Below, piece by piece: positions 11,330-31,820 of a stretch of DNA of 64,000 nt (position 1 is the first letter of the stretch; each line of letters starts with the position of its first letter). Source of the DNA: Acidimicrobiia bacterium (lineage in GTDB: Bacteria > Actinomycetota > Acidimicrobiia > IMCC26256 > JACDBD01); NCBI GenBank assembly GCA_050743365.1, contig JBOGFI010000050.1:2917-66916 (forward strand), read 5' to 3'. Both the position numbers and the translations under genes were made by a program. The notes under the pieces are model-generated. The model did no database searches. It saw nothing but the letters and a program-made list of their open reading frames with translations, and had not been told where the DNA came from.

Positions 11330-12187
11330 CTATGTGCGGGTCGGCTGCCCGCGTCTCTGCCGCCAGGGCGAAGAACGGCCGGACGGCGCGTGTCGACGGA
11401 ACCTGCCGCGGGTCGCCGACTTCTCGCGCGTAGGCGAGCCGGACCAGGGGGATTCGGCTGCCGCCTGACTGGTGCCCTTACGAGGACGGACGGCTAGCGC
11501 GCCGCTCACCTCCTCCAGTGCCGGTACCCGGCGTCCGAACCAGCGGTGGGCCCAGGTGACGGTTCGGCCCCCGAGGAAACGCTCGACCAGGCCGGCGATC
11601 ACGACCAGATCGGCCAGCGGTGACGCGTTGGTCACGTACCACTCGTCGACAGCCAGCTTGAGCGGCAGGACGAGATCGCCGTACACGTCGTCCCCGGGAG
11701 CAGCGTCGGCGAGGAGGTGATCCTCCCAGTCATGGACCAGGACCTGGGACGGACCGGCGATGCCCGGTCGCCCCCGGAGGACGGCTTGCCAGCGCGGATC
11801 TTCCTGGTTGACGTAGGCGGGGGTCTCGGGGCGCGGGCCGATGATCGCCATGGTGCCGGTGACGACGTGTAGGAGCTGGGGAAGCTCGTCGAGCCGGGAG
11901 GCGCGCAGGTATCGCCCCAGACGCGTGATGCGGGTGTCGTCCCGACCTGCAGTCAGCGCGCGGCCGCCGGCAGTCCCGTCGGCCCGAGCGGTCCGCATGG
12001 TCCGCAGCTTGAGCAACGTGAACGGTCGACCGTGGCGCCCGATGCGCCGGAGCCGGACGATCGCTGGTCCCGGGCTCGTTCGCCGGGCGACGCCAGCCAA
12101 AAGGCCGACGAGTGGCAGGAGGGTCACGCCGACCACCGCGGCGACCACACGGTCGAGCGGGTTCCGAACGATGAGCCAGCGGTTCAT
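11330..12187 (-). CDS. Small monotopic phosphoglycosyltransferase (bacterial sugar transferase, PglC/WbaP C-domain type)
   Basis: 285 aa with an N-terminal re-entrant helix (VVAAVVGVTLLPLVGLL). Motifs are PFTLLKLRTM and RLDELPQLLHVVTGTMAIIGPRP. The last ~70 aa are low-complexity. The start forms an ATGA overlap with the DegT stop. Confidence 0.8.
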   Translation of the reverse strand: MNRWLIVRNPLDRVVAAVVGVTLLPLVGLLAGVARRTSPGPAIVRLRRIGRHGRPFTLLKLRTMRTARADGTAGGRALTAGRDDTRITRLGRYLRASRLDELPQLLHVVTGTMAIIGPRPETPAYVNQEDPRWQAVLRGRPGIAGPSQVLVHDWEDHLLADAAPGDDVYGDLVLPLKLAVDEWYVTNASPLADLVVIAGLVERFLGGRTVTWAHRWFGRRVPALEEVSGALAVRPRKGTSQAAAESPWSGSPTREKSATRGRFRRHAPSGRSSPWRQRRGQPTRT

Positions 12188-13347
12188 GACGCCTTGCCGA
12201 TGGCATCGGCGAGCGCGGCACAGACGCGGTCGACCTGGTCATCGGACAGCTCGGGGTGCAGGGGCAGGCTCAAGACCCGGGGGGCGAGCCCCTCGGCCAC
12301 GCCAAATCCCGCGGGATCGACCTGGGCGTGGCGGCGGAACCAGTCGAGGCGGTGCAACGGCTGGAAGTGGATGCTGGTGCCCACGCCCTCGGCCCCCAGC
12401 CGGTCGACCACCCGATCGCGCCGCACCCGGTCGGGCAGCACCACGACCATGAGGTGGTCGGCGCCGTTCTTCTCGAGCTCGTCGGGCACGCACCGAACAC
12501 CGTCAAGTTGCGCGAGCTGCTCGCGGTAACGGGTCACAGCGTGCCGGCGCCGGGCCTGGAGCTCGTCGAAGCGAGCGAGTTGCGCCCGGGCAACGGCGGC
12601 AAGCAGGTCGGGCAGGTTCGCCTTGATCCCCGGCGTGCGCACGTCGTAGGCGAGTCCGTCGCCAGACGTGTACCGAGCCCATGCGTCCACGCTGAGGCCA
12701 TGGAGCCGGTAAGCGTTCGCGAAGGTGGCGAGCTTCGGGTCCTCGGTCACAAGCGCGCCACCCTCGCCGCATGTCAGGTTCTTGGTCGCATAGAACGAGA
12801 AGCATGCAGCCATCGTGCCGTGGCCTCCGATGCGCCCACGCCAATCGCGCGAGCCGAGCGCGTGCGCGGCGTCCTCGACGACCGGCACCCCCGCATCGCG
12901 ACAGAGCTCGTAGATCCGGGGGTCGACGGGCACCCCGCCGAAATGGACGACCACGACCGCGCGCACGCCCACGTCGATCGCCCGAGCGACGGCGTCGAGT
13001 GAGACATTGAGGCTGTCGGCGTCGACATCGAGAAGGAGCGGAACCGCGCCGAAGCGAGTGAAGCTCGTGGCAGTCGACACGAACGTCCACGTCGGCACCG
13101 CCACCGTTGCACCGGGCGGCAGGTGCAGTGCCGCGGCCGCGGTCTCCATCGCCGCGGTGCACGACGACATCGCGACGACGTAGGGCATCCCGAGATACTC
13201 CCCGAGCTCGGATTCCAGCGCGAGACACTCCTGACCCGTGGTCAGCCAGCCGCTCTCCAGGACTCGGCAGGCGCTCGCGATCTCGTCGTCGCCGATACTC
13301 GGCGCCGCGAACACGACGCGGTCTTCGGTCACCCGAGCGCGTGCCAT
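12184..13347 (-). CDS. DegT/DnrJ/EryC1/StrS family sugar aminotransferase (PLP)
   Basis: ORF 12184..13371 with preferred ATG 13347. Motifs are GDDEI, WLTTGQE, VEDAAHALG and FSFYATKNLTCGEGG (PLP Lys). Confidence 0.85.
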   Translation of the reverse strand: MARARVTEDRVVFAAPSIGDDEIASACRVLESGWLTTGQECLALESELGEYLGMPYVVAMSSCTAAMETAAAALHLPPGATVAVPTWTFVSTATSFTRFGAVPLLLDVDADSLNVSLDAVARAIDVGVRAVVVVHFGGVPVDPRIYELCRDAGVPVVEDAAHALGSRDWRGRIGGHGTMAACFSFYATKNLTCGEGGALVTEDPKLATFANAYRLHGLSVDAWARYTSGDGLAYDVRTPGIKANLPDLLAAVARAQLARFDELQARRRHAVTRYREQLAQLDGVRCVPDELEKNGADHLMVVVLPDRVRRDRVVDRLGAEGVGTSIHFQPLHRLDWFRRHAQVDPAGFGVAEGLAPRVLSLPLHPELSDDQVDRVCAALADAIGKAS

Positions 13348-13696
13348 ACCGACCTGCCGATTCCGCTGCACTGCGCGCGACAGGGCCGTCGCCAGCCCAG
13401 GGCCGAGGACGACGACCGACGGTGGCCGCCCGTCACCGCGCGCGCGATCCCGCCCGCTGCCCGTCGAGTGCTCGAGTGGTGGCCGGTTGTACCCCGATGC
13501 ACCCCGATGCCCCCAAACCGGGCCCGCCCCTGAGATGTCGTGGAGTCTCTAGTAGAGAAAGGAGGTATTTGTCTACCCTCCACGAGCCTATGCGCCGTTC
13601 AGTGGCTTTGTCTCGTGACCTTGGGGGCTCGTCACGCCTTGCCCTCCGATGCGCCTCTATCGAACCGTCTTGACCGCCAAACGGAGGAGCCGAGGC

Positions 13697-21087: not shown

Positions 21088-22152
21088 GTGTTTCTCGTGA
21101 GTGAGTCGTTGGGCACGGCCTGGTCCGACCTCGTCGAATGGCGCGGTGGGGGCTGCCTGATCGTGGCCGAGGTCGCCCAGACCCACGACGGCAGCCTGGG
21201 TCAAGCTCACGCGTTCATCGATGCCGTCGCCGGGACGGGCGCAGACGCCATCAAGTTCCAGACACATTTGGCGGCAGCCGAGAGTACCCCCGCGGAGCCG
21301 TGGCGGGTCCCGTTCAGCTACGAGGACGAGACCCGCTACACCTACTGGCAACGCATGGAGTTCACCCCCGCGCAATGGGAAGGGCTCGCCCGCCACGCGC
21401 GCGACAAAGAGCTGCTGTTCCTGAGCTCGCCGTTCTCCCTCGAGGCCGTCGACCTCCTCGAGGCCATCGGCATGCCGGCATGGAAGATCGCCTCGGGAGA
21501 GGTGGGAAATACCGCGCTGCTCGATCGCGTCACTGCCACAAGCGCGCCCGTGCTGCTGTCCAGCGGGATGAGCGACCTCGCCGAGCTCGACACCGCCGTC
21601 GAGCGCGTCCGAGCCGCCGGCAACGACGTGGTCGTGCTGCAGTGCGCTACCACCTATCCGTGCCCACCGGAGTCGGTCGGCCTGAATCTCCTCGCCGAGC
21701 TCCGCGACCGCTACGCGTGCCCGGTCGGCCTCTCCGACCACTCCGCCACGATCTACGCCGGCCTCGCCGCCGCGACGCTCGGCGCCGCGGTGCTCGAGGT
21801 GCACGTCACCCTGAGTCGTGAGATGTTCGGTCCCGACGTACCCGCATCGCTCACTACCGCCGAGCTCGGCCAGCTCGTCGACGGAGTGCGGTTCATCGAA
21901 GCCATGCTCTCGAACCCGGTGGACAAAAACGCCGCTGCGACCCACCTCGAGCCGACGCGGCGGCTCTTCACCCGAAGCGTTGTCGCACGATCCGACCTCG
22001 AGGCCGGTCACGTGCTCACCGCGGATGACCTCGTTGCCAAGAAGCCGGGCACGGGCATCCCCGCCACCCGGTTGCCCGAGCTGGTGGGACGGCGCCTCCG
22101 CCGTGCCATCGACCGCGATGCGCTGCTCGCCCCCGAGGACCTGGACTCCTGA
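21088..22152 (+). CDS. neuB: N-acetylneuraminate (nonulosonate) synthase
   Basis: 354 aa: LIVAEVAQTHDGSL, GADAIKFQTH, WKIASGE, GLSDHS, and a C-terminal SAF-like domain. Confidence 0.85.
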   Translation: MFLVSESLGTAWSDLVEWRGGGCLIVAEVAQTHDGSLGQAHAFIDAVAGTGADAIKFQTHLAAAESTPAEPWRVPFSYEDETRYTYWQRMEFTPAQWEGLARHARDKELLFLSSPFSLEAVDLLEAIGMPAWKIASGEVGNTALLDRVTATSAPVLLSSGMSDLAELDTAVERVRAAGNDVVVLQCATTYPCPPESVGLNLLAELRDRYACPVGLSDHSATIYAGLAAATLGAAVLEVHVTLSREMFGPDVPASLTTAELGQLVDGVRFIEAMLSNPVDKNAAATHLEPTRRLFTRSVVARSDLEAGHVLTADDLVAKKPGTGIPATRLPELVGRRLRRAIDRDALLAPEDLDS

Positions 22153-22153
22153 C

Positions 22154-23311
22154 GTGGCCCGTCGCAAGGTCTGCGTGGTCGTGACCGCCCGCCCGAGTTA
22201 CAGCCGGATCAAGACGGCGCTCCGCGCGATCGCCGACCACCCGGACCTCGATCTGCAGGTGGTCGTCGCGGCTTCCGCCCTGCTCGACCGTTACGGCAAC
22301 GCAGTAGACCAGGTTCGCTCCGACGGATTCGGGATCGACCGCGAGATCTTCATGGTGCTCGAGGGCGAGACCCCCATGGCGATGGCCAAGACCACCGGCC
22401 TCGGGCTGCTCGAGCTGGCCACCGCGTTCGACAACCTCGCGCCCGACGTCGTCGTGACCGTCGCCGACCGCTACGAGACCCTGGCGACGGCGGTGGGTGC
22501 CGCCTACCTGAACATCCCACTTGCCCACGTCCAGGGAGGCGAGGTCACGGGCTCGATCGACGAGAAGGTCCGCCATGCAGTGACGAAGCTCGCCGACCTT
22601 CACCTGGTGTCGACCGAGCGGGCGGCCGAACGCGTCATCCGCATGGGCGAGGACCCCGACACGGTCTTCGTCACCGGCTGTCCCTCGATCGACCTCGCCG
22701 CCGAGATCCTCGACGCGCCCGAGGTGGACTTCGACCCGTACGAGCGCTACGGGGGTGTCGGGGCGTCCTTCGACCTGAACTCCGACTACCTGGTGGTCCT
22801 CCAGCATCCCGTGACCACCGAATACGAGGAGGCGCGGGCCCATGTCACCGAGACGCTCCACGCCGTGGATAAGTCCGGGCTGCCCACGTTGTGGTTCTGG
22901 CCCAACGTCGACGCCGGGTCCGACGGCACCTCCGGCGGGATCCGAGCCTTTCGCGAGCAGCACCAGCCAGCGGGCATTCACTTCTTCAAGAACATGGCCC
23001 CGAGCGACTTCATCCGGATCGTCTACAACTCCCGGGCCATCGTCGGGAACTCGAGCATGGCCGTCCGGGAATGCTCGTTCCTCGGGGTGCCGGCGGTGAA
23101 CATCGGGAGCCGGCAGGCCGGTCGCGAGCGCGGCACGAACCTGGTCGACGTCGGCTACGACCGGTCCGCGATCGTGAGCGCGATCAAGGCGCTCGGCCGC
23201 CGTTCCGGTCCCGGGACCGACCTCACCTACGGCGACGCCAAGGCCGGTCCGCGCATCGCCGAGCGCCTTGCCGAGGTCGAGCTCCGCTACGACAAGAAGC
23301 TCGCCTACTGA
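22154..23311 (+). CDS. neuC: UDP-N-acetylglucosamine 2-epimerase (hydrolysing)
   Basis: GTG 22154 inside ORF 21818..23311, 1 nt after the neuB stop. Motifs are VCVVVTARPSYSRI and HVQGGEVTGSIDEKVRHAVTKL. Confidence 0.8.
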   Translation: MARRKVCVVVTARPSYSRIKTALRAIADHPDLDLQVVVAASALLDRYGNAVDQVRSDGFGIDREIFMVLEGETPMAMAKTTGLGLLELATAFDNLAPDVVVTVADRYETLATAVGAAYLNIPLAHVQGGEVTGSIDEKVRHAVTKLADLHLVSTERAAERVIRMGEDPDTVFVTGCPSIDLAAEILDAPEVDFDPYERYGGVGASFDLNSDYLVVLQHPVTTEYEEARAHVTETLHAVDKSGLPTLWFWPNVDAGSDGTSGGIRAFREQHQPAGIHFFKNMAPSDFIRIVYNSRAIVGNSSMAVRECSFLGVPAVNIGSRQAGRERGTNLVDVGYDRSAIVSAIKALGRRSGPGTDLTYGDAKAGPRIAERLAEVELRYDKKLAY

Positions 23312-24021
23312 TGCGGGTACTGGGGCTCATACCCGCACGCGGAGGCTCGAAGGGGATCCAGCGCAAGAACGTCAGGGCGCTCGGAGGACGGCCGCTCCTC
23401 GCCTACACGGCAGAGGCCGCGCTGTCGGCGAGGACGCTCAGCCGCGTGGTGCTCTCCACCGAAGACGAGGAGATCGCCGACCTCGGCCGGGCCCTTGGTC
23501 TCGACGTGCCGTTCCTGCGGCCGGCCGCGCTCGCCGACGACGAGGCCCCGATGCTGTCGGTCGTCCAGCACGTCCTCAGCGCGCTGGAGGGCGCGGGCGA
23601 CCGATACGACGCCGTCTGCTTGCTCCAGCCCACCAACCCACTGCGGACCGCCGAGACGATCGACGCGTGCGTCCAGCTCCTCGAGCGCAGCGGCGCCGAC
23701 GCCGCCGTCACGGTCTTGCCCATTCCCACCGAGCACAATCCCCACTGGGCATTCGAGGTGGGAGCCGACGGCTTTCTGCGACTGACCACCGGCGAGGCGC
23801 AGCCCATCACCCGCCGCCAGGACCTTCCACCGGCATTCCACCGTGAGGGGTCCGTTTACGTCACTCGCGTTCCCGTCGTGCTCGCAGGCAGCCTCTACGG
23901 CGGGCGCCTCGTCGGCCTCGAAGTGCGCCCCGACCAGAGCGTGAACCTCGACGAGCCAGGTGACTGGGCACGCGCCGAGACGCTTCTCGCTGCAGGCGCG
24001 AGGGCACCGGCCGGATCGTGA
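23311..24021 (+). CDS. neuA: Acylneuraminate cytidylyltransferase (CMP-nonulosonate synthetase)
   Basis: ATG 23311 inside ORF 22891..24021, in a TGATG overlap with neuC. The N-terminus reads MRVLGLIPARGGSKGIQRKN, and LLQPTNPLR is present. Confidence 0.85.
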   Translation: MRVLGLIPARGGSKGIQRKNVRALGGRPLLAYTAEAALSARTLSRVVLSTEDEEIADLGRALGLDVPFLRPAALADDEAPMLSVVQHVLSALEGAGDRYDAVCLLQPTNPLRTAETIDACVQLLERSGADAAVTVLPIPTEHNPHWAFEVGADGFLRLTTGEAQPITRRQDLPPAFHREGSVYVTRVPVVLAGSLYGGRLVGLEVRPDQSVNLDEPGDWARAETLLAAGARAPAGS

Positions 24022-25115
24022 CCTCCTTCCCGAAGGTGGTCTTCGTGGCCGGCACCCTCGGGGTCGGCGGCGCCGAGCGCCAGCTCTACTACATGGCCAG
24101 AACGCTTCGGGAGCACGGCGCCGAGCCGGAGGTCGTGTCGTTGACCCAGGGGGAACACTGGGAGCCGCGAATCCGCGAGCTGGGAGTACCCGTGCACTAC
24201 GCCGGCGCGGTTCACTCGCGGCCGGTTCGCGCGGCTCGAATCGCGTTTCTCGCCCGTCGGATCCGACCGGACGTGGTGCAGAGCTCCCACTTCTACACGA
24301 ACCTCTACGCCAGCCTCGCGGCCCGAGCAGCCGGCGCCCGCGACATCGGGGCAATCCGAAACGACGCGATCCGGACCGTCAGAGATGCCGGTCGGTGGGG
24401 ACAAGCATTGCTGCGTGTCCCTCGCGCCCTCGCCGTGAACTCGACCCGCGCCCGCCATCAGGCGATCGGCATGGGAGTCCACGCCGATCGGGTCGTCTAC
24501 CTTCCCAGCGTGGTGGACACATCGCTGTTCACGCCCGCGCCTGCCGTCGAGGGGCCCGAGACCGTCGTGCTGAGCGTCGGGCGCCTCGTGGAGCAAAAGC
24601 GGCACGACCGCTTCCTGCGGGTACTCCGTCGGGTCATCGACCGCGCACCGTGCGGCACCAGAGTGCGCGGCATCATCCTGGGCGACGGGCCGTTGGGCGC
24701 AACACTCGAGGCGCAAGCTGCAGAGCTCGGGCTCGGCGGCGAGGCGCTCACGTTTCTCGCCGATCCCGACAGCCCGCCTGTGTACCAGTCGGCGAGCATC
24801 TTCGTCCTCGCGTCCGACTACGAAGGCACGCCCAATGTGATCCTCGAAGCCATGGCGACCGGGCTCCCCCTTGTGGCCTGCGATGTCGGAGAGGTCGCTG
24901 CCCTCGTCGAAGAGGGGGTTACCGGATACATCCTCCACCCCGGCGACGAGGACCGTACGGTCGAAAGAGTGCTGGAGCTCGTGCGTGACCCGGCAGAGCG
25001 GCGGCGCCTCGGAGCCGAGGGCCGGCGGCGAGTCGAGCACGGGCGGTCGATCGCAAGGCTCGCCGTCGAGCTGAGCACGCTCTATGAGCGGTGTGGCACA
25101 GCGGTGGGCCGCTGA
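24018..25115 (+). CDS. GT4 family glycosyltransferase
   Basis: 365 aa with a GTGA overlap with neuA. Motifs are GGAERQ and the EX7E region SDYEGTPNVILEAMATGLPLV. Confidence 0.8.
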   Translation: MTSFPKVVFVAGTLGVGGAERQLYYMARTLREHGAEPEVVSLTQGEHWEPRIRELGVPVHYAGAVHSRPVRAARIAFLARRIRPDVVQSSHFYTNLYASLAARAAGARDIGAIRNDAIRTVRDAGRWGQALLRVPRALAVNSTRARHQAIGMGVHADRVVYLPSVVDTSLFTPAPAVEGPETVVLSVGRLVEQKRHDRFLRVLRRVIDRAPCGTRVRGIILGDGPLGATLEAQAAELGLGGEALTFLADPDSPPVYQSASIFVLASDYEGTPNVILEAMATGLPLVACDVGEVAALVEEGVTGYILHPGDEDRTVERVLELVRDPAERRRLGAEGRRRVEHGRSIARLAVELSTLYERCGTAVGR

Positions 25116-25117
25116 GC

Positions 25118-26879
<1,762 letters not shown>

Positions 26880-26902
<23 letters not shown>

Positions 26903-28373
26903 CGGTCTCGACGCTCGCCCGCGCCTGCTGGCCGCCTTGCCGCGAGGTGAGGCGATACGGAACTTCGTGTACTCGGGCATCCTCGATGCCATCGCCGAGT
27001 CCGTCGACCTTGAGGTCGCAACCGTGCTGCCAAATGACGAGCTCGCGGAATTGCTGCGATCCCTCTACGGCGACATCCTCCCGCTCGAACCGTGGCGAGA
27101 CCGCTGGGGTGTCGGGGCGATCCGTGAGCTGCTCGACCTCGCCCATGGGCGCTGGGTGTGGTCGGAGGCGGCTCAGGAACGTTGGCGGCTGCGGAACCTT
27201 GAAGCGACGACAGCGCGGGCCCGGGTCAACCGGGCGGCTAAGCGAACGGCCGCACGCGTGCTCGCCCGACCCAGCGGTCTATCGCTCCTCGAACGAGCCT
27301 ACGACGGGGCGAGCGCTCGTTGGCCCTCGAGCCGCGTGTTCCGGGAGCGGTTGGCGGCGTCACCACCGTCCCTCGTCTTCAACGCCTCGCAGGTGCACGG
27401 TGAAACGGTCCGAGGGCTCATCACGGCGGCCCGATCGCTCGCCATCCCGACCGCCGCGTTCCTCTTCTCCTGGGACAACCTGACCTCCCAAGGGCGGATC
27501 ATTCCGAGCTATGACTGCTACCTCGCTTGGAGCGAGACGATGCGCGACGACCTCTTGCGGATGTATCCATCGGTCGACCCGGCGGCCGTCTTCGTGACTG
27601 GGACACCACAGTTCGACGCCCACTTCCGGACCGAGCATGCATGGTCGAGAGAGGAGTATTGCGGTCGGATCGGCGCCGATCCCGAGCGTCCGATCGTTCT
27701 CTACAGCACGGGTATGCCAAACCACATGCCCGGTGAGCCGTCGATCGTCGAGGGCATCGCCGACCGTCTGGCGCGTCGCGGCGATCTCGGTCGCCCCCAG
27801 CTCGTGGTCAGGGTGTACGCAAAGGACCGGACGGGCCGCTTCCACGACCTCGCTCGACGCCGTCCCGACATCATCTTCCCGCCGGTCCCCTGGGAGCCCA
27901 ACTGGCTCACACCCCTACCGGAGGACACCGCGCTGTGGTCGAACATCCTCCGGCACGCCGATGTCGGCATCAACGTCGCCTCGACCGTCTCTTTGGAACT
28001 GTGCATGTTCGACCGGCCCGTAGTGAACGTCGGATACAACCCGCCGGGCGTGCCTACTTGGCAGTTGGACTACTCGCGCTACTACCGCTTCGATCACTAC
28101 CGCCCGGTCGTGGCCAGCGGCGCCGTCGAGGTCGCCTCATCGCCCGACAGCCTGATGGACGCCGTTGCGCAGGCGATCAGCAGACCCTCGCTCTGCTCTC
28201 CTATGCGCCAACAACTGCTTGCACGACTCTTTGGCGAGCATCTGGACGGTAAGGCACGCCAGCGCGTTGCGGAGCGCCTCGTCGAGCTGACGACTGCAGC
28301 CGGATCCATGCAGACGTTGCGCCGCTCGGGGACCTCCGAGCCCCGAGGGAGCGCTGCTCCGAGCCGCACGTGA
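26880..28373 (+). CDS. Uncharacterised GT-B-like transferase (candidate nonulosonate or glycerophosphate transferase)
   Basis: 497 aa with a GTG start that overlaps the asnB end by 23 nt. It has a two-Rossmann-like layout. PIVLYSTGMPNH and ILRHADVGINVASTVSLELCMFDRPVVNV resemble the acceptor/donor half motifs of TagF-like and other GT-B enzymes. No family was recognised with certainty. Confidence 0.4.
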
Positions 28374-29434
28374 CTTCAGCCGGCCTGCGAGCGAGCGAGG
28401 CGATGGACACGGCTCCCTGTCTGCGGGGCGGACCGTTGGCAGATCCTGGATGGGCAATCGTGCACGCTACGTCTTCGCTTGGAAGTTCGGACCGGGCGTC
28501 GATGATCCGAGCCGCGCTCATCCCTCTCGTGTTCGACGGCATGGAGTCGGCGTTCGCCTCGCGGGAGGACCGTCTCCCCCTCGTACAGAGGATGCTCAGC
28601 GACGCTGCCAATTCGACTGCAGCCATGACCGGGAGCGGTCTTGCCGCGCTTGGTGCAGCCGTCGATCAGACTCCGCGTCCCATCGACGCTGTCGATACGG
28701 GCGTGGCGGCCACAACCGGTGCACACTACGGCCGTCTATTCGAGCGCTTCTCCTCGAAGTCGTTCTGGGACGAACCGCGCGAGTTGTTGAGAACACGTCT
28801 CGAGCGCAACGGAATCCCACTCGATTGCATCCGCGACCGGTCGGTCCTCGACGCCAGCTGCGGCGGCGGTCGCTACTCCGTTGCGTGGCGACTCTTGGGG
28901 GCTCGGAGCGTCACTGGGCTCGACGTCTCGGCGACGGGTATCGGCAGTGCCCGCGACCGCGTTCTGAGCGCGGGGATCGATGGCGTGTCGTTCACACAGG
29001 GGGACGTCCTGGACCTCCCCTGCGAGGATGACGCTTTCGACATCGTGTTCTCCAACGGCGTGCTGCACCACACGGTCGAATGGCAGCGTGGCGTGCAAGA
29101 ACTCGTACGTGTTCTCCATCCCGGTGGTATGGGCTGGTTGTATCTGATCGAGAAGCCGGGCGGCCTGTTCTGGGATCTGATCGAGATTCTTAGGGTCATA
29201 ATGCACGGCGAGAGCAGCCAACGCGTCCGAACCGTCCTTCAGTCCTTCGGCTTTTCAGCGAATCGGGTGTACTACATGCTCGACCACGTGATGGTGCCCA
29301 TCAACAAGCGCCTCACCGCTGATGAGATCACGGACGAGCTCCACCTGGCGGGGGCATCGGGTATCCGACGGTTGGAGCGCGGCGTCGACTTCGATCGCGT
29401 TGAGGCAACCACCGGGGTGATCCATTCGTACTAG
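28370..29434 (+). CDS. Class I SAM-dependent methyltransferase
   Basis: 354 aa with a GTGA overlap with the upstream gene. The SAM motif is VLDASCGGGRYS, followed by DIVFSNGVLHH. The ~120-aa N-terminal extension is unassigned. Confidence 0.7.
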   Translation: MTSAGLRASEAMDTAPCLRGGPLADPGWAIVHATSSLGSSDRASMIRAALIPLVFDGMESAFASREDRLPLVQRMLSDAANSTAAMTGSGLAALGAAVDQTPRPIDAVDTGVAATTGAHYGRLFERFSSKSFWDEPRELLRTRLERNGIPLDCIRDRSVLDASCGGGRYSVAWRLLGARSVTGLDVSATGIGSARDRVLSAGIDGVSFTQGDVLDLPCEDDAFDIVFSNGVLHHTVEWQRGVQELVRVLHPGGMGWLYLIEKPGGLFWDLIEILRVIMHGESSQRVRTVLQSFGFSANRVYYMLDHVMVPINKRLTADEITDELHLAGASGIRRLERGVDFDRVEATTGVIHSY

Positions 29435-29972: not shown

Positions 29973-31820
29973 TCAAGGGAGGCGGGAGAGCTCGACCGCT
30001 TCTCGGTAAAAGCCGTTCGACCGTACCAACGAGTCCGCGGTGTCGAACGCCTCGAGCTGGCCCTCGCGCAGGACTATGATGCGATCGCAGAGGTTGAGGG
30101 TCGACAGCCGGTGGGCGATGCAGACAATCATCATCTCCCTCTTCGACTCCTCGAGTGAGCGCTGGATCAGAGACTCCGAGCGGACGTCGAGCGCGCTCGT
30201 CGGCTCGTCGAGAACCAGCACGTCCGGGCGCGTCACGAGCGCCCGGGCCAGGCAAATCCGCTGGCGCTGACCGCCTGACACAGCATCGGCCCGTTGACCG
30301 ACCACGGTGCAATACCCCTGCGGCCAGGAGCAGATCTCGTCATGGACGTGGGCCAAGCGCGCGGCGTGCTCCACCTCCTCGTCGCTGATTCCGTCGCGAA
30401 GAAACCGGATGTTGTCGGCCACTGTCCCGCTCAGCAGCTTCGGGTCTTGCGGCACGAATGCGACCAGCCGCCGCCAGTCGGCGAGACGGTACTGCGCGGC
30501 CGTCCGGCTGTTCACGAAAAGCTCGCCGCTCGACGGCTGTCGAAGCCGGAGGATGAGCTGGACGAGCGTGGACTTGCCGGCGCCGCTGGGACCGATGATG
30601 CCGGTCGCCTCACCGCGAGATATCTGGAAGCTGACGTTCTTGAGCACTGGCACACCGGGCTTGTACTCGAACCACACGCCGTCGAACGCGAGTCCCTCGA
30701 CGCAAGCCAGCGCCTCGTCACCCGACTGCGCCCGGTTGGCCTCGTAGACCGCCTGCCGCTCGAGGAGGTGCTCGATGTACGGCATAACCTCATTTGCCGC
30801 GTGGTAGCGGTCCTGTGCGGTCTGGGAATAGCCGAGGGCCCGCAGGAAGATCAGACCGATAGCTCCGAGGCTCGCCACCTGCGCACTACCGGTTAGGTAT
30901 ACGACGGCAAGCCCCCCCAGGATCAGGCTGACCGCGGCGTTTTGGTAGACAGCGGGGACGACGTCGCGGAGGAGCTCAGTCCGGAACTGGTACCGGCTGA
31001 CGTCGTCGACCTGTCGGTCGACGATGTGGCGCTGCTGCTCTTCCACGCCGAAGGCCTGCACCTCCTCGATGATCCGGACCGCTTCGCTGATGGAGCCGGC
31101 ATACTTGAGCCCCTCGGCGGCACGCCGGCGTGACTGGTGGCGGATCAATCGCGCGAGGGGCCGTAGGAGGAAGAAGAACGCCACGACCGAGACCACGATG
31201 CTCATCGCCGCGGGCGGGTTCAGGATGATGGCCGAGATCATCAGCGTCGTGAAGTTGAACGCAGCTGTGATGACATCGCTTATGAAACGGACGGCGTTGG
31301 ACACCCGGTTGACCTGCGTCGTCAGCAGCTCTTGAAGGTGACCTTCACGCTCTTGCGACTGGACATCCCAGGTCGCATGCACGAAGTCCTCGAAGATCGA
31401 CTTGCGGAATTGCTCCTGCACGTCGGTGCTCATGCGGGCCGGGAGGTAAGCGGCGAAAAGCTGGAGCCCCAGGCGTACGACGGCAAGGACAAAGCCGACG
31501 GCAAAGAGCGCACCGACACTCACCGACCCGCCAAGCGGACCCGCATCGAGGTCGACGTGGTCATCGCCAGTGGAAATAGCGAGAGTTAACCGAACGATGA
31601 TGACGAGCGCTGACGCTTCGGCGAGCGCCGACCCGATCGCGCACGCGGCCAATAGGGCCACATGCCAACGCCTGCCGCCGAGCAACGCGCTGAGCGGCCG
31701 CAGCGAAGCTTGGGACTTCCGCTCGGGCTCTCTACCTGTTTCAGCCCGTACTCTTCGAAGGAAGCGCCGCGCCGCCCGCAATCGGGAGTCTGGATCGGTA
31801 CTGGTGGTCTCGTGCGCCAC
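29973..31820 (-). CDS. ABC exporter, fused permease-ATPase (MsbA/PglK-like half transporter)
   Basis: 615 aa with six N-terminal hydrophobic spans. It has Walker A GPSGAGKST, signature LSGGQRQR and Walker B VLVLDEPTSALD. Confidence 0.85.
   Translation of the reverse strand: MAHETTSTDPDSRLRAARRFLRRVRAETGREPERKSQASLRPLSALLGGRRWHVALLAACAIGSALAEASALVIIVRLTLAISTGDDHVDLDAGPLGGSVSVGALFAVGFVLAVVRLGLQLFAAYLPARMSTDVQEQFRKSIFEDFVHATWDVQSQEREGHLQELLTTQVNRVSNAVRFISDVITAAFNFTTLMISAIILNPPAAMSIVVSVVAFFFLLRPLARLIRHQSRRRAAEGLKYAGSISEAVRIIEEVQAFGVEEQQRHIVDRQVDDVSRYQFRTELLRDVVPAVYQNAAVSLILGGLAVVYLTGSAQVASLGAIGLIFLRALGYSQTAQDRYHAANEVMPYIEHLLERQAVYEANRAQSGDEALACVEGLAFDGVWFEYKPGVPVLKNVSFQISRGEATGIIGPSGAGKSTLVQLILRLRQPSSGELFVNSRTAAQYRLADWRRLVAFVPQDPKLLSGTVADNIRFLRDGISDEEVEHAARLAHVHDEICSWPQGYCTVVGQRADAVSGGQRQRICLARALVTRPDVLVLDEPTSALDVRSESLIQRSLEESKREMMIVCIAHRLSTLNLCDRIIVLREGQLEAFDTADSLVRSNGFYREAVELSRLP

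What the first reader, a model, noticed from the sequence alone, without database searches (positions are those of the whole stretch)
26880..28373. Unclassifiable GT-B-like protein coupled to asnB: candidate nonulosonate transferase
Seen: no recognisable sialyltransferase family signature occurs in the locus. This 497-aa ORF overlaps the asnB stop by 23 nt and is GTGA-coupled to the downstream methyltransferase. It has a two-lobed Rossmann-like pattern, with PIVLYSTGMPNH in the first lobe and ILRHADVGINVASTVSLELCMFDRPVVNV in the second. That pattern recalls TagF-type and capsule-type GT-B enzymes without matching any family I can name. Inference: a CMP-sugar cassette needs a dedicated transferase, so this is the best orphan candidate.
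Basis: inference. Interest (0 to 1): 0.55.

Follow-up and report, generated by a model that had tools for sequence, protein, structure and literature searches.

The report
Candidate sialic-acid-like sugar transferase, unnamed family
This gene encodes a two-lobed sugar-transferase-type enzyme from a large, unnamed family that is nearly always found with the genes for a sialic-acid-like nine-carbon sugar, so it is the best candidate for attaching that sugar to the cell-surface polymer, although no activity has been shown.

Summary
The 497-aa ORF at 26880-28373 is real. It overlaps asnB by 23 nt and shares GTGA with the next gene. The AlphaFold model is confident (pLDDT 87.8) and has a GT-B fold.

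The protein passes no curated family cut-off, but it can be placed. Its family has over 1,500 clusters at 90% identity, every named member called "hypothetical". Profile comparison links it to a sister "mid paralogue" family (E 3.5e-60). It also links to the TIGR04396/BFO_1060 family (E 5e-21), which includes the Tannerella forsythia Pse/Leg transferases known from knock-outs.

In 301 Acidobacteriota genomes, 20 of 21 carriers of the superfamily have NeuB, against 63 of 280 non-carriers. The two genes are usually 3-45 kb apart. In this genome the target is the only superfamily member and lies 5 kb from the only neuB. No GT38, Maf, KpsS-like or TagF-like gene was found.

Three caveats apply. 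The His of the His-Pro motif is Tyr313-Ala314 here. Most other loci also carry the paralogue that keeps His-Pro. The similar B. subtilis protein SpsB proved dispensable for Leg transfer.

Verdict: probable CMP-nonulosonate transferase (about 0.55), a new variant of a known kind. First readers of this scan noted the same paralogue pairs in four other genomes.

The parts
26880..28373 (+). Target gene: 497-aa GT-B fold protein of an unnamed family (P0001)
   Evidence: ORF and translation. AF2 pLDDT 87.8. GT-B matches. Over 1,500 homologue clusters, the named ones all 'hypothetical'.
26871..26878 (+). Shine-Dalgarno-like GAGGGGGA just upstream of the GTG start, inside the 3' end of asnB
   Evidence: Read directly from the sequence.
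27105..27359 (+). Helical insertion in the N-lobe (residues about 76-160). Net charge +9 with five Trp. Inferred to be a membrane-interface or acceptor-binding region.
   Evidence: Secondary structure of the model. Composition. No transmembrane segment: maximum Kyte-Doolittle score 1.34.
27465..27497 (+). FSWDNLTSQGR motif (residues 196-206), invariant in the family. SWDN is shared with the mid paralogue. Asp199 is a candidate catalytic base (inference).
   Evidence: Invariant columns in A1. Three-way alignment. hhalign A1 against A3.
27594..27623 (+). VTGTPQFDAH lobe-junction motif (residues 239-248)
   Evidence: Invariant G241, T242, P243, Q244, F245, D246 and H248. This is the region that matches NF046086.
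27810..27827 (+). RVYAKD (residues 311-316). This is the position of the K/R-x-H-P motif in the paralogues. His is replaced by Tyr313. Lys315 and Asp316 are invariant.
   Evidence: Alignments. Invariant columns.
27972..28031 (+). NVASTVSLELCMFDRPVVNV (residues 365-384), the nucleotide-binding strand-helix-strand region typical of the GT-B C-lobe
   Evidence: Invariant N365, S368, T369, L372, E373 and P380. Conserved in the mid and BFO-like families.
21088..22152 (+). neuB-like nonulosonate synthase, the only one in the genome
   Evidence: Pfam NeuB and SAF. TIGR03569 at 300 bits, below its cut-off. Single genome match.
22193..23311 (+). neuC-like hydrolysing UDP-GlcNAc 2-epimerase (start uncertain)
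   Evidence: TIGR03568 at 342.7 bits, above the cut-off of 235.9.
23296..24021 (+). neuA-like CMP-nonulosonate synthetase (start uncertain)
   Evidence: Pfam CTP_transf_3. PseF-like at 148 bits, below its cut-off.
24018..25115 (+). GT4 glycosyltransferase
   Evidence: Pfam Glycos_transf_1 and Glyco_transf_4.
25091..26902 (+). AsnB-type glutamine amidotransferase, overlapping the target start. An orthologue is present in 46 of 52 related loci that have at least 9 kb of upstream flank.
28370..29434 (+). SAM methyltransferase with a 4-nt overlap with the target stop. Its first 130 residues or so match no family.

Best explanation
The gene encodes a soluble or peripheral-membrane GT-B enzyme. It most likely takes the CMP-activated nonulosonic acid made by the neuB-neuC-neuA genes of the same operon, possibly after tailoring by the flanking AsnB-type amidotransferase and methyltransferase. 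It would then transfer that sugar to the lipid-linked surface glycan built by the locus's GT2 and GT4 enzymes, releasing CMP.

Shown here: the fold, the homology to the Tannerella Pse/Leg transferase family, and the genomic coupling to the nonulosonate genes.

Inferred:
- the donor and the acceptor;
- Asp199 of the invariant SWDN motif as the base;
- Tyr313, Lys315, Asp316 and Arg320 as replacements for the usual His-Pro phosphate contact;
- the basic, Trp-rich helical insert as the membrane or acceptor face.
For: 1. Fold. The confident AF2 model is GT-B. Its structural neighbours include the CMP- or CDP-dependent enzymes TarL (Z 19.0), WaaA (17.2), TagF (16.2), a capsule polymerase bound to CMP (15.7) and a polysialyltransferase (13.5).

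2. Homology.
- There is a partial hit to NF046086 BFO_1060_trans at E 3e-9. Eight of ten distant relatives tested also hit it at E 3e-9 to 1.5e-13, one only at 5e-3 and one not at all.
- BFO_1060 is an orthologue of Tanf_01245, whose knock-out loses the terminal Pse (PMC5420450).
- hhalign of the target family against a BFO_1060/TIGR04396-type family gives probability 99.4%, E 5e-21, over 300 columns.
- On one Bacteroidia contig a true BFO_1060 member (246 bits), a mid paralogue and a target orthologue sit in tandem, next to PtmA-like and PseH-like genes.

3. Co-occurrence.
- In 301 Acidobacteriota genomes, 20 of 21 superfamily carriers have NeuB at E<=1e-30, against 63 of 280 non-carriers.
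- 14 of the 15 genomes with the NeuB class at least 50% identical to this window's NeuB carry a superfamily member.
- In at least 14 genomes the two genes lie 3-45 kb apart on one contig.
- All 10 genomes whose 10-kb flanks lacked neuB do have one. The five searched with this window's NeuB have a copy 60-68% identical to it. Where contigs could be matched, the gene lies 12-29 kb upstream.

4. This genome. It holds one neuB and one superfamily member, 5 kb apart in a run of overlapping genes. No GT38, Maf, Capsule_synth or Glyphos_transf gene was found.

5. Target-only loci. At least nine loci, this one included, have the nonulosonate cassette and the target but no mid paralogue.
Against: - No biochemical or genetic datum exists for any member of this family.
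- The His of the K/R-x-H-P motif is Tyr313 here. That motif is conserved in the mid paralogue (RPHP), in the BFO-like family (KVHP), and, from literature knowledge, in GT-B sialyltransferases and TagF-like enzymes.
- In 64 of 82 related loci an HP-bearing mid paralogue lies upstream of the target, often directly adjacent, and could be the true nonulosonate transferase.
- The best structural matches are UDP-GlcNAc 2-epimerases, at Z 19-21.
- B. subtilis SpsB has a TagB domain and HP motifs and lies next to the CMP-Leg genes, yet it is not needed for Leg transfer (PMC7439481).
- Related genomes are not independent, so the Fisher p-values overstate the association.
Confidence: 0.55

Rival explanations
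1. It is a nonulosonate-associated GT-B transferase that performs a different step. It might add another residue onto or next to the nonulosonate, or use another activated donor. The real nonulosonate transferase would then be the HP-bearing mid paralogue in other genomes, and an unrecognised enzyme in this one.
For: Loss of the HP His while the adjacent paralogue keeps it. The usual tandem arrangement of mid paralogue and target. SpsB is nonulosonate-linked, is not the Leg transferase, and still alters the spore surface.
Against: This genome and at least eight other loci have the cassette and the target but no mid paralogue. No other known nonulosonate transferase family is present. This reading therefore needs a further unknown transferase.
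Confidence: 0.25
2. It is a TagF/TagB-like polyol-phosphate or sugar-phosphate transferase that uses a CDP-activated alcohol and builds a phosphodiester link in the polymer.
For: TarL at Z 19.0 and TagF at Z 16.2. Atlas neighbour clusters carry PF04464 in 14-58% of members. A relative, P0209 (E 9e-46 to the target), passes the PF04464 cut-off at 94.6 bits.
Against: The target scores only 12.8 bits on PF04464 against a cut-off of 22.1. The whole-genome PF04464 search found nothing. The only cytidylyltransferase recognised among the Pfam-scanned ORFs of the window (about 1-42.5 kb) or among the conserved neighbour clusters is NeuA-type. The family tracks neuB, not teichoic-acid genes. The HP His is absent.
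Confidence: 0.08
3. It is a GT-B fold enzyme that is not a transferase, for example an epimerase-like or hydrolysing enzyme that acts on a nucleotide sugar of the nonulosonate pathway.
For: The top structural matches are NeuC and UDP-GlcNAc 2-epimerases (Z 19.6-21.3; Foldseek E 2e-12). There is a weak Pfam Epimerase_2 hit at E 0.065.
Against: That hit is far below the cut-off (12.5 against 30.6 bits). A bona fide NeuC is already in the operon. Sequence-level kinship runs to the BFO_1060 and PF04464 transferase families. The Z-score differences among the top rows are small.
Confidence: 0.05
4. It is a non-catalytic paralogue, a scaffold or specificity subunit, that has lost the catalytic His.
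For: The His-to-Tyr change at the HP position.
Against: About 100 invariant columns cluster in the usual GT-B active-site motifs across phyla. It stands alone, without its paralogue, in this genome.
Confidence: 0.03

Closest known systems
Tannerella forsythia Tanf_01245 / TFUB4_00887 / BFO_1060 (NCBIfam NF046086; overlaps TIGR04396 'surface carbohydrate biosynthesis protein')
   Same: A GT-B, TagB-like protein of about 450-500 aa, encoded beside CMP-nonulosonate genes. Profile-profile homology at 99.4% probability over 300 columns. Found in tandem with a target orthologue on one contig. A methyltransferase is a neighbour in both cases.
   Different: Only 36.5 bits against the cut-off of 200. 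The N-lobes barely align. The HP motif (KVHP) is RVYAKD here. The target has an extra helical insert of about 85 residues. The Tannerella evidence comes from knock-outs and cross-complementation only.
The 'mid paralogue' family (alignment A3), unnamed, usually encoded upstream of target orthologues, often directly adjacent
   Same: Full-length homologue: hhalign E 3.5e-60 over 430 columns. Shares the SWDN, G(T/A)PQFD and STV..(E/D) motifs.
   Different: It keeps RPHP. It is absent from this genome. Its function is also unknown.
TagF / TarL / TagB CDP-polyol phosphotransferases (Pfam PF04464)
   Same: GT-B fold (Z 16-19). CMP is the leaving group in both proposed reactions. The superfamily grades into PF04464 (P0209).
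   Different: Below the Pfam cut-off. No HP His. From memory and untested here, the TagF catalytic His in the WHG motif may correspond to Asp199 in SWDN. Genomic linkage is to neuB, not to CDP-glycerol genes.
GT-B bacterial sialyltransferases (CAZy GT38, GT52, GT80)
   Same: GT-B fold and a proposed CMP-sugar donor. A polysialyltransferase matches at Z 13.5.
   Different: No sequence match to their Pfam models. The HP motif is not conserved. The D/E-D/E-G motif was not identified.
Ulosonic-acid transferases WbbB (GT99), KpsC (GT107), KpsS1 (GT118), KrkA (GT140)
   Same: They transfer CMP-activated 8- or 9-carbon ulosonic acids onto lipid-linked glycans, some as chain caps in ABC-transporter pathways (PMC12887879). 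Related loci encode Wzm/Wzt-like exporters.
   Different: No Capsule_synth match. These families did not appear among the structural hits listed, which does not exclude similarity.
Bacillus subtilis SpsB
   Same: A TagB-like protein encoded next to CMP-legionaminic acid genes and predicted to be the transferase.
   Different: SpsB keeps its HP motifs. [quoted passage not shown] Direct similarity to the target was not tested.

Membership tests
GT-B fold superfamily | Two Rossmann-like lobes with a C-terminal helix crossing back | tested here: met
   AF2 pLDDT 87.8. 187 chains at Z>=8, and the top 50 rows are all GT-B enzymes. Foldseek probability 1.00.
NCBIfam NF046086 (BFO_1060 family glycosyltransferase) | Whole-protein score at or above the curated cut-off of 200 bits | tested here: not met
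   36.5 bits, residues 211-280 only. 29.9 bits in the six-frame search.
NCBIfam NF046086 (BFO_1060 family glycosyltransferase) | Homology detectable by profile-profile comparison | tested here: met
   hhalign A1 against A2: probability 99.4%, E 5e-21, 300 columns.
NCBIfam NF046086 (BFO_1060 family glycosyltransferase) | HP motif in the C-lobe, as described by Tomek et al. 2017 | tested here: not met
   KVHP in A2 aligns with RPHP in A3, which aligns with RVY(P/A)KD in the target family.
NCBIfam NF046086 (BFO_1060 family glycosyltransferase) | Encoded with CMP-nonulosonate biosynthesis genes | tested here: met
TIGR04396 (surface carbohydrate biosynthesis protein) | Score at or above 125 bits | tested here: not met
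   14.8 bits.
Pfam PF04464 Glyphos_transf (TagF-like) | Score at or above the gathering threshold of 22.1 bits | tested here: not met
   12.8 bits, E 0.058. No genome-wide hit.
Pfam PF04464 Glyphos_transf (TagF-like) | Catalytic and phosphate-binding histidines (WHG and HP motifs; recalled from the TagF literature) | tested here: inconclusive
   The His at the HP position is absent, replaced by Tyr313. The WHG/SWDN correspondence could not be tested, because there is no sequence bridge to TagF or TarL in the PDB.
Pfam PF04464 Glyphos_transf (TagF-like) | A CDP-glycerol or CDP-ribitol synthesis gene in the locus | tested here: not met
   Only a NeuA-type cytidylyltransferase was found among the annotated window ORFs and the conserved neighbour clusters. 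The rest of the genome was not searched for TagD or TarI.
GT-B sialyltransferases (GT38 / GT52 / GT80) | Match to the family model (PF07388, PF07922, PF11477) | tested here: not met
   None is listed for the protein at E<=1. The genome searches were empty, although the controls were silent for PF07922 and PF11477.
GT-B sialyltransferases (GT38 / GT52 / GT80) | HP and D/E-D/E-G motifs | tested here: not met
   The HP position holds Tyr-Ala. No D/E-D/E-G motif was identified, and Asp199 in SWDN is the only candidate acid.
UDP-GlcNAc 2-epimerase (PF02350) | Score at or above 30.6 bits | tested here: not met
   12.5 bits. Structural similarity is nevertheless the highest of all, at Z 21.3.
Capsule_synth (PF05159; KpsC/KpsS, GT107/GT118) | Match to the family model | tested here: not met
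   No hit for the protein or the genome (where the controls rang).
Any nonulosonate transferase | Transfer of a nonulosonate from its CMP donor to an acceptor | not testable with these tools
   This needs an enzyme assay or genetics.

The most novel reading that the evidence does not exclude
The target family is a new CAZy-level family of CMP-nonulosonate transferases that has replaced the near-universal His-Pro phosphate contact with a Tyr/Lys/Asp/Arg constellation (RVYxKDRTGRF). With its HP-bearing sister family it installs one or two nonulosonate residues, perhaps as chain caps read by Wzt-type exporters, on a conserved surface glycan. The module for that glycan has spread horizontally through Acidobacteriota, Gemmatimonadota, Planctomycetota, Firmicutes, Myxococcota and Actinomycetota.
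Probability: 0.35. Interest if true: 0.7.

Novelty: new variant of a known kind. Interest (0 to 1): 0.55.

Why it matters
Nonulosonic acids (sialic, legionaminic and pseudaminic acids) are widespread on environmental bacteria. The enzymes that attach them are known for only a few pathogens, and both papers read here call the transferases scarce or unknown (PMC5420450, PMC7439481).

This family is large. It has about 4,000 clusters at 50% identity with E<=1e-3. Sources that name its members call them hypothetical. It is tightly tied to one conserved neuBCA-asnB module.

If it is the transferase, three things follow:
- a blank would be filled in thousands of genome annotations;
- glyco-engineers would gain new enzymes for Leg/Pse/Neu-type sugars;
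- there would be a natural test of whether the His-Pro motif is dispensable.

If it is not, it still marks a conserved and unexplained step in a surface-glycan pathway that crosses phyla.

Tried and rejected
- Sequence searches of the PDB found nothing related. This covered the protein, its family profile, the mid-paralogue profile and the PF04464-positive relative P0209. The best hit was GlgM at E 0.0023 for 70 residues. Residue-level mapping onto TagF, TarL or sialyltransferase active sites was therefore not possible, and model coordinates are not exposed.
- Pfam gave only sub-threshold hits.
- The phylum-level search in the window's own phylum was uninformative for co-occurrence. Only 3 of 401 genomes carry any relative and only this genome carries an orthologue. 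The test was moved to Acidobacteriota.
- Literature searches for TIGR04396, and for 'nonulosonic' together with 'glycerophosphotransferase', found nothing relevant.
- The GT52, GT42 and GT80 genome searches returned nothing, but their controls were silent, so they show nothing.
- I considered whether a GT4 or GT2 enzyme of the locus might be the nonulosonate transferase. I gave this low weight because, to my knowledge, no member of either family uses a CMP-sugar.
- I considered folding the mid paralogue and running a complex prediction. I did not run either. This genome lacks the paralogue, and CMP and CMP-sugars are not among the offered ligands.
Full report
**1. The observation**

The ORF 26880-28373 (+) begins with GTG and encodes 497 residues. 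A GAGGGGGA Shine-Dalgarno-like box ends one base before the GTG start. The asnB stop (TAA, 26900-26902) lies 23 nt inside the ORF. The stop TGA (28371-28373) overlaps the GTG at 28370 of the downstream methyltransferase ORF.

The gene sits in an unbroken plus-strand run of overlapping genes: neuB, neuC, neuA, GT4, asnB, target, methyltransferase. NeuC passes the curated TIGR03568 cut-off. NeuB and NeuA are clear family members by Pfam but fall below the NCBIfam equivalog cut-offs.

The wider locus encodes:
- a PglC-type initiating transferase and a DegT aminotransferase;
- several GT2 and GT4 enzymes;
- a fused ABC exporter and a Wzy_C/WaaL-like protein;
- two adenylating enzymes and a Wzz/tyrosine-kinase-like protein.

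**2. Fold**

An AlphaFold2 model built on 32 homologues is confident, with mean pLDDT 87.8 and pTM 0.86. It is a GT-B fold. Foldseek gives probability 1.00 to UDP-GlcNAc 2-epimerases, MshA and GlgM.

An exhaustive VIA search gives these matches:

| Match | Z |
|---|---|
| NeuC | 21.3 |
| Other 2-epimerases | 19-20 |
| TarL with CDP-ribitol | 19.0 |
| MGD1 | 18.6 |
| WaaA | 17.2 |
| TagF | 16.2 |
| Capsule polymerase with CMP | 15.7 |
| Polysialyltransferase | 13.5 |

These values are too close together to assign a function.

The lobe junction is the invariant VTGTPQFD (residues 239-246).

The N-lobe carries a helical insertion of about 85 residues (about 76-160). It has net charge +9 and five tryptophans, and the protein has no transmembrane segment. 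I infer that this is a membrane-interface or acceptor face, as in other GT-B enzymes that act on lipid-linked substrates.

**3. Family**

Pfam gives only sub-threshold hits: Glyphos_transf at 12.8 bits and Epimerase_2 at 12.5 bits. NCBIfam gives a partial hit to NF046086, the BFO_1060 family glycosyltransferase, at E 3e-9 and 36.5 bits against a cut-off of 200. No solved structure is related by sequence.

The protein is far from an orphan, however.
- A search of 5.8 billion proteins found 1,547 clusters, the best 120 at 53-78% identity. Every name given by a source is 'hypothetical protein'.
- The exhaustive search of 50%-identity representatives found 3,983 at E<=1e-3 and 375 at E<=1e-30.
- Among species-representative genomes, 330 stretches encode a relative. 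They are mostly in Acidobacteriota, and also in Gemmatimonadota, Planctomycetota, Verrucomicrobiota, Armatimonadota, Myxococcota, heliobacteria/Clostridia, Bacteroidia and Actinomycetota.
- In the window's own phylum the family is rare. Only 3 of 401 sampled genomes have any relative, and only this genome has an orthologue. That fits acquisition of the module by horizontal transfer.
- About 100 columns are invariant across 32 diverse members. They include PRGE (21-24), FNxSxxH (167-173), FSWDNLTSQGR (196-206), GTPQFDxH, YxTGMxNHMPGE, RxYxKDxxxRF (311-321) and NxxSTxxLE (365-373).

**4. Link to a family with experimental evidence**

BFO_1060 is the strain 92A2 orthologue of Tanf_01245. Deleting Tanf_01245 or TFUB4_00887 in Tannerella forsythia removes the terminal pseudaminic or legionaminic acid derivative from the S-layer O-glycan. 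The authors describe the protein as TagB-like GT-B with DXD, D/E-D/E-G and HP motifs (PMC5420450).

Eight of ten distant relatives of the target that I tested hit NF046086 at E 3e-9 to 1.5e-13, always below the cut-off. One hit it only at 5e-3 and one not at all.

One 5.6-kb Bacteroidia contig (L074) holds, in a row:
- a PtmA-like reductase and a PseH-like acetyltransferase;
- a true BFO_1060/TIGR04396 member (246 and 192 bits, both above their cut-offs);
- an intermediate 'mid paralogue';
- a target orthologue.

Profile-profile comparisons place the three families in one superfamily:

| Comparison | Probability | E-value | Columns |
|---|---|---|---|
| Target vs mid | 100% | 3.5e-60 | 430 |
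| Target vs BFO-like | 99.4% | 5e-21 | 300 |
| Mid vs BFO-like | 99.3% | 1e-20 | 284 |

The superfamily grades into Pfam PF04464 at its edge. P0209 hits the target at E 9e-46, consists of two tandem target-like modules, and passes the PF04464 cut-off at 94.6 bits. Atlas neighbour clusters carry PF04464, Epimerase_2 or Capsule_synth in minorities of their members.

**5. Genomic coupling to the nonulosonate genes**

I compared 82 related loci with up to 10 kb on each side. The target orthologue sits in a conserved, same-strand module:
- Wzm-like permease and Wzt-like ATPase;
- PhyH-like dioxygenase;
- mid paralogue, then target;
- GT2, GT4, GT4;
- Wzy_C/WaaL-like protein, GT4 and a CapK-like adenylating enzyme.

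Upstream lie asnB (46 of the 52 loci with at least 9 kb of upstream flank) and neuB-neuC-neuA (neuA in 21 of those 52).

I then searched ten genomes whose flanks lacked neuB. All ten have one. The five searched with this window's NeuB have a copy 60-68% identical to it. Where contigs could be matched, the gene lies 12-29 kb upstream on the same strand.

In an even sample of 301 Acidobacteriota genomes:
- 21 carry a superfamily member at E<=1e-20;
- 20 of these 21 have a NeuB homologue at E<=1e-30, against 63 of 280 non-carriers (Fisher p 2e-11);
- 14 of the 15 genomes with the NeuB class at least 50% identical to this window's NeuB carry a superfamily member (p 4e-18);
- in at least 14 genomes the two genes are 3-45 kb apart on one contig.

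These p-values ignore relatedness and overstate the case, but the pattern spans several phyla.

Even very distant superfamily members follow the pattern. Some occur as multi-copy genes in long ORFs at E about 1e-22 to 1e-26, and they too lie beside neuB homologues.

**6. This genome**

The assembly is 96.6% complete. It has a single NeuB-family gene, the one in this window. It has a single member of the superfamily, the target. It has no match to GT38, Maf/MptE-like, Capsule_synth or Glyphos_transf models, for which the controls rang. GT52, GT42 and GT80 searches were empty, but their controls were silent. The mid paralogue is absent. At least eight other loci show the same 'asnB then target, no mid paralogue' layout with a nonulosonate cassette.

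**7. The unusual feature**

In the mid paralogue the second strand of the C-lobe ends in LLVRPHP. In the BFO-like family it ends in IIKVHP. This is the K/R-x-H-P motif. Tomek et al. noted the HP motif, and to my knowledge GT-B sialyltransferases, KpsC/S and TagF-like enzymes share it for contacting the CMP phosphate.

The target family has LLVRVY(P/A)KDRTGRF at this position, and this window has Tyr313-Ala314. Arg311, Tyr313, Lys315, Asp316, Arg320 and Phe321 are invariant.

P0209's two modules read RLPPTD and RFQPND, so Asp316 is the more widely kept residue in this branch.

Tandem SWDN paralogues were noted in three further genomes.

The SWDN motif may correspond to the WHG catalytic motif of TagF. 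That is from memory and I could not test it.

**8. Mechanism proposed**

Shown:
- the GT-B fold;
- homology to a family implicated in Pse/Leg transfer;
- obligate-looking genomic association with a specific neuBCA(-asnB) module;
- sole candidate status in this genome.

Inferred: NeuC, NeuB and NeuA make a CMP-nonulosonate whose identity is unresolved. The flanking AsnB-type amidotransferase and methyltransferase may tailor it or its neighbourhood. The target binds CMP-sugar in its C-lobe, through the STV..E and Tyr313/Lys315/Arg320 region. It uses Asp199 as the base and transfers the sugar to an undecaprenyl-linked glycan at the membrane face provided by the basic, Trp-rich insert.

In most other genomes two or three paralogues would add further nonulosonates or make different linkages. 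The Wzm/Wzt exporters in those loci suggest a chain-capping role like that of the Kdo transferase WbbB (PMC12887879). That suggestion is speculation.

**9. Rivals**

(a) The target performs another nonulosonate-linked step, and the HP-bearing paralogue is the real transferase. The lost His and the SpsB precedent favour this. SpsB is TagB-like, has HP motifs and lies next to the CMP-Leg genes, yet Leg still reaches the spore surface without it (PMC7439481). Loci that have the target alone argue against it.

(b) It is a TagF-like phosphotransferase. The structure and the PF04464 fringe favour this. No CDP-polyol genes were found among the ORFs and neighbour clusters I annotated, and the association is with neuB.

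(c) It is an epimerase-like enzyme. This rests on structural rank only.

(d) It is a non-catalytic paralogue. Conservation of the active-site-like motifs makes this unlikely.

**10. Verdict**

The protein belongs to none of the named families by their own criteria. It is a new family-level branch of the TagB-like putative nonulosonate transferases, and it has an altered His-Pro motif. I rate it a new variant of a known kind. My confidence that it transfers the nonulosonate is about 0.55, and my interest score is 0.55.

Noticed in passing
L074:1053-5253 (Bacteroidia contig); also L003, L014, L034, L064, L072: Up to three paralogous GT-B genes lie in tandem: BFO_1060/TIGR04396-type, mid paralogue and target orthologue. 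64 of 82 loci have the mid paralogue upstream of the target, often directly adjacent, and 8 also have the third. This implies two or three related transfer steps in most genomes, against one in this window.
   Followed up: partly
L058:17-931 and 35 other loci; proteins P0122, P0271: A PhyH-like Fe(II)/2-oxoglutarate dioxygenase is encoded upstream of the paralogue pair in 36 loci. In some proteins it is fused to the C-terminus of a target-like domain. It may hydroxylate the transferred sugar, by analogy with Kdo hydroxylase, which I recall from memory. It is absent from the window.
   Followed up: partly
L019:677-1981, L038:1196-2074 and related loci, compared with window 29973-31820: Most related loci use a Wzm-like ABC-2 permease with a Wzt-like ATPase. 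The ATPase has a weak Wzt_C hit at 26.4 bits, below its cut-off. This window instead has a fused ABC_membrane/ABC_tran half-transporter on the opposite strand.
   Followed up: no
P0209 (metagenomic protein, 897 aa): This protein is two tandem target-like GT-B modules in one polypeptide. It passes the Pfam Glyphos_transf cut-off but has RLPPTD and RFQPND at the HP position. PF04464 therefore already contains members that lack the His.
   Followed up: partly
G499:C2:54878-63641, G523:C17:232667-255979, G564:C12:45799-61660: Four or five distant superfamily copies (E about 1e-21 to 1e-26) sit in open frames of about 560-1,400 aa. They cluster within 3-15 kb of one to three neuB homologues. These may be multi-domain nonulosonate polymer synthases.
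   Followed up: no
window 28370-29434: The methyltransferase ORF coupled to the target has about 130 N-terminal residues with no family match before the SAM-binding domain. An in-frame ATG at 28403 is an alternative start. Orthologues occur in only 5 of the related loci.
   Followed up: no
window 11330-13371 (-): A PglC-type small phosphoglycosyl transferase (Bac_transf) and a DegT aminotransferase lie at the left edge of the locus. This suggests the glycan starts on an amino-sugar phosphate.
   Followed up: no
whole genome G000 against its phylum: Only 3 of 401 sampled genomes of the window's phylum carry any relative of the target, and only this genome carries an orthologue. The closest orthologues outside it are 57-60% identical and come from Acidimicrobiia, Armatimonadota and Acidobacteriota. 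The module looks horizontally acquired.
   Followed up: partly
G001:C1:808750-810132: The open frame holding the target orthologue in a complete Acidobacteriota MAG chromosome was reported with one in-frame TAG. I did not check whether this is a real disruption or an effect of extending the frame.
   Followed up: no
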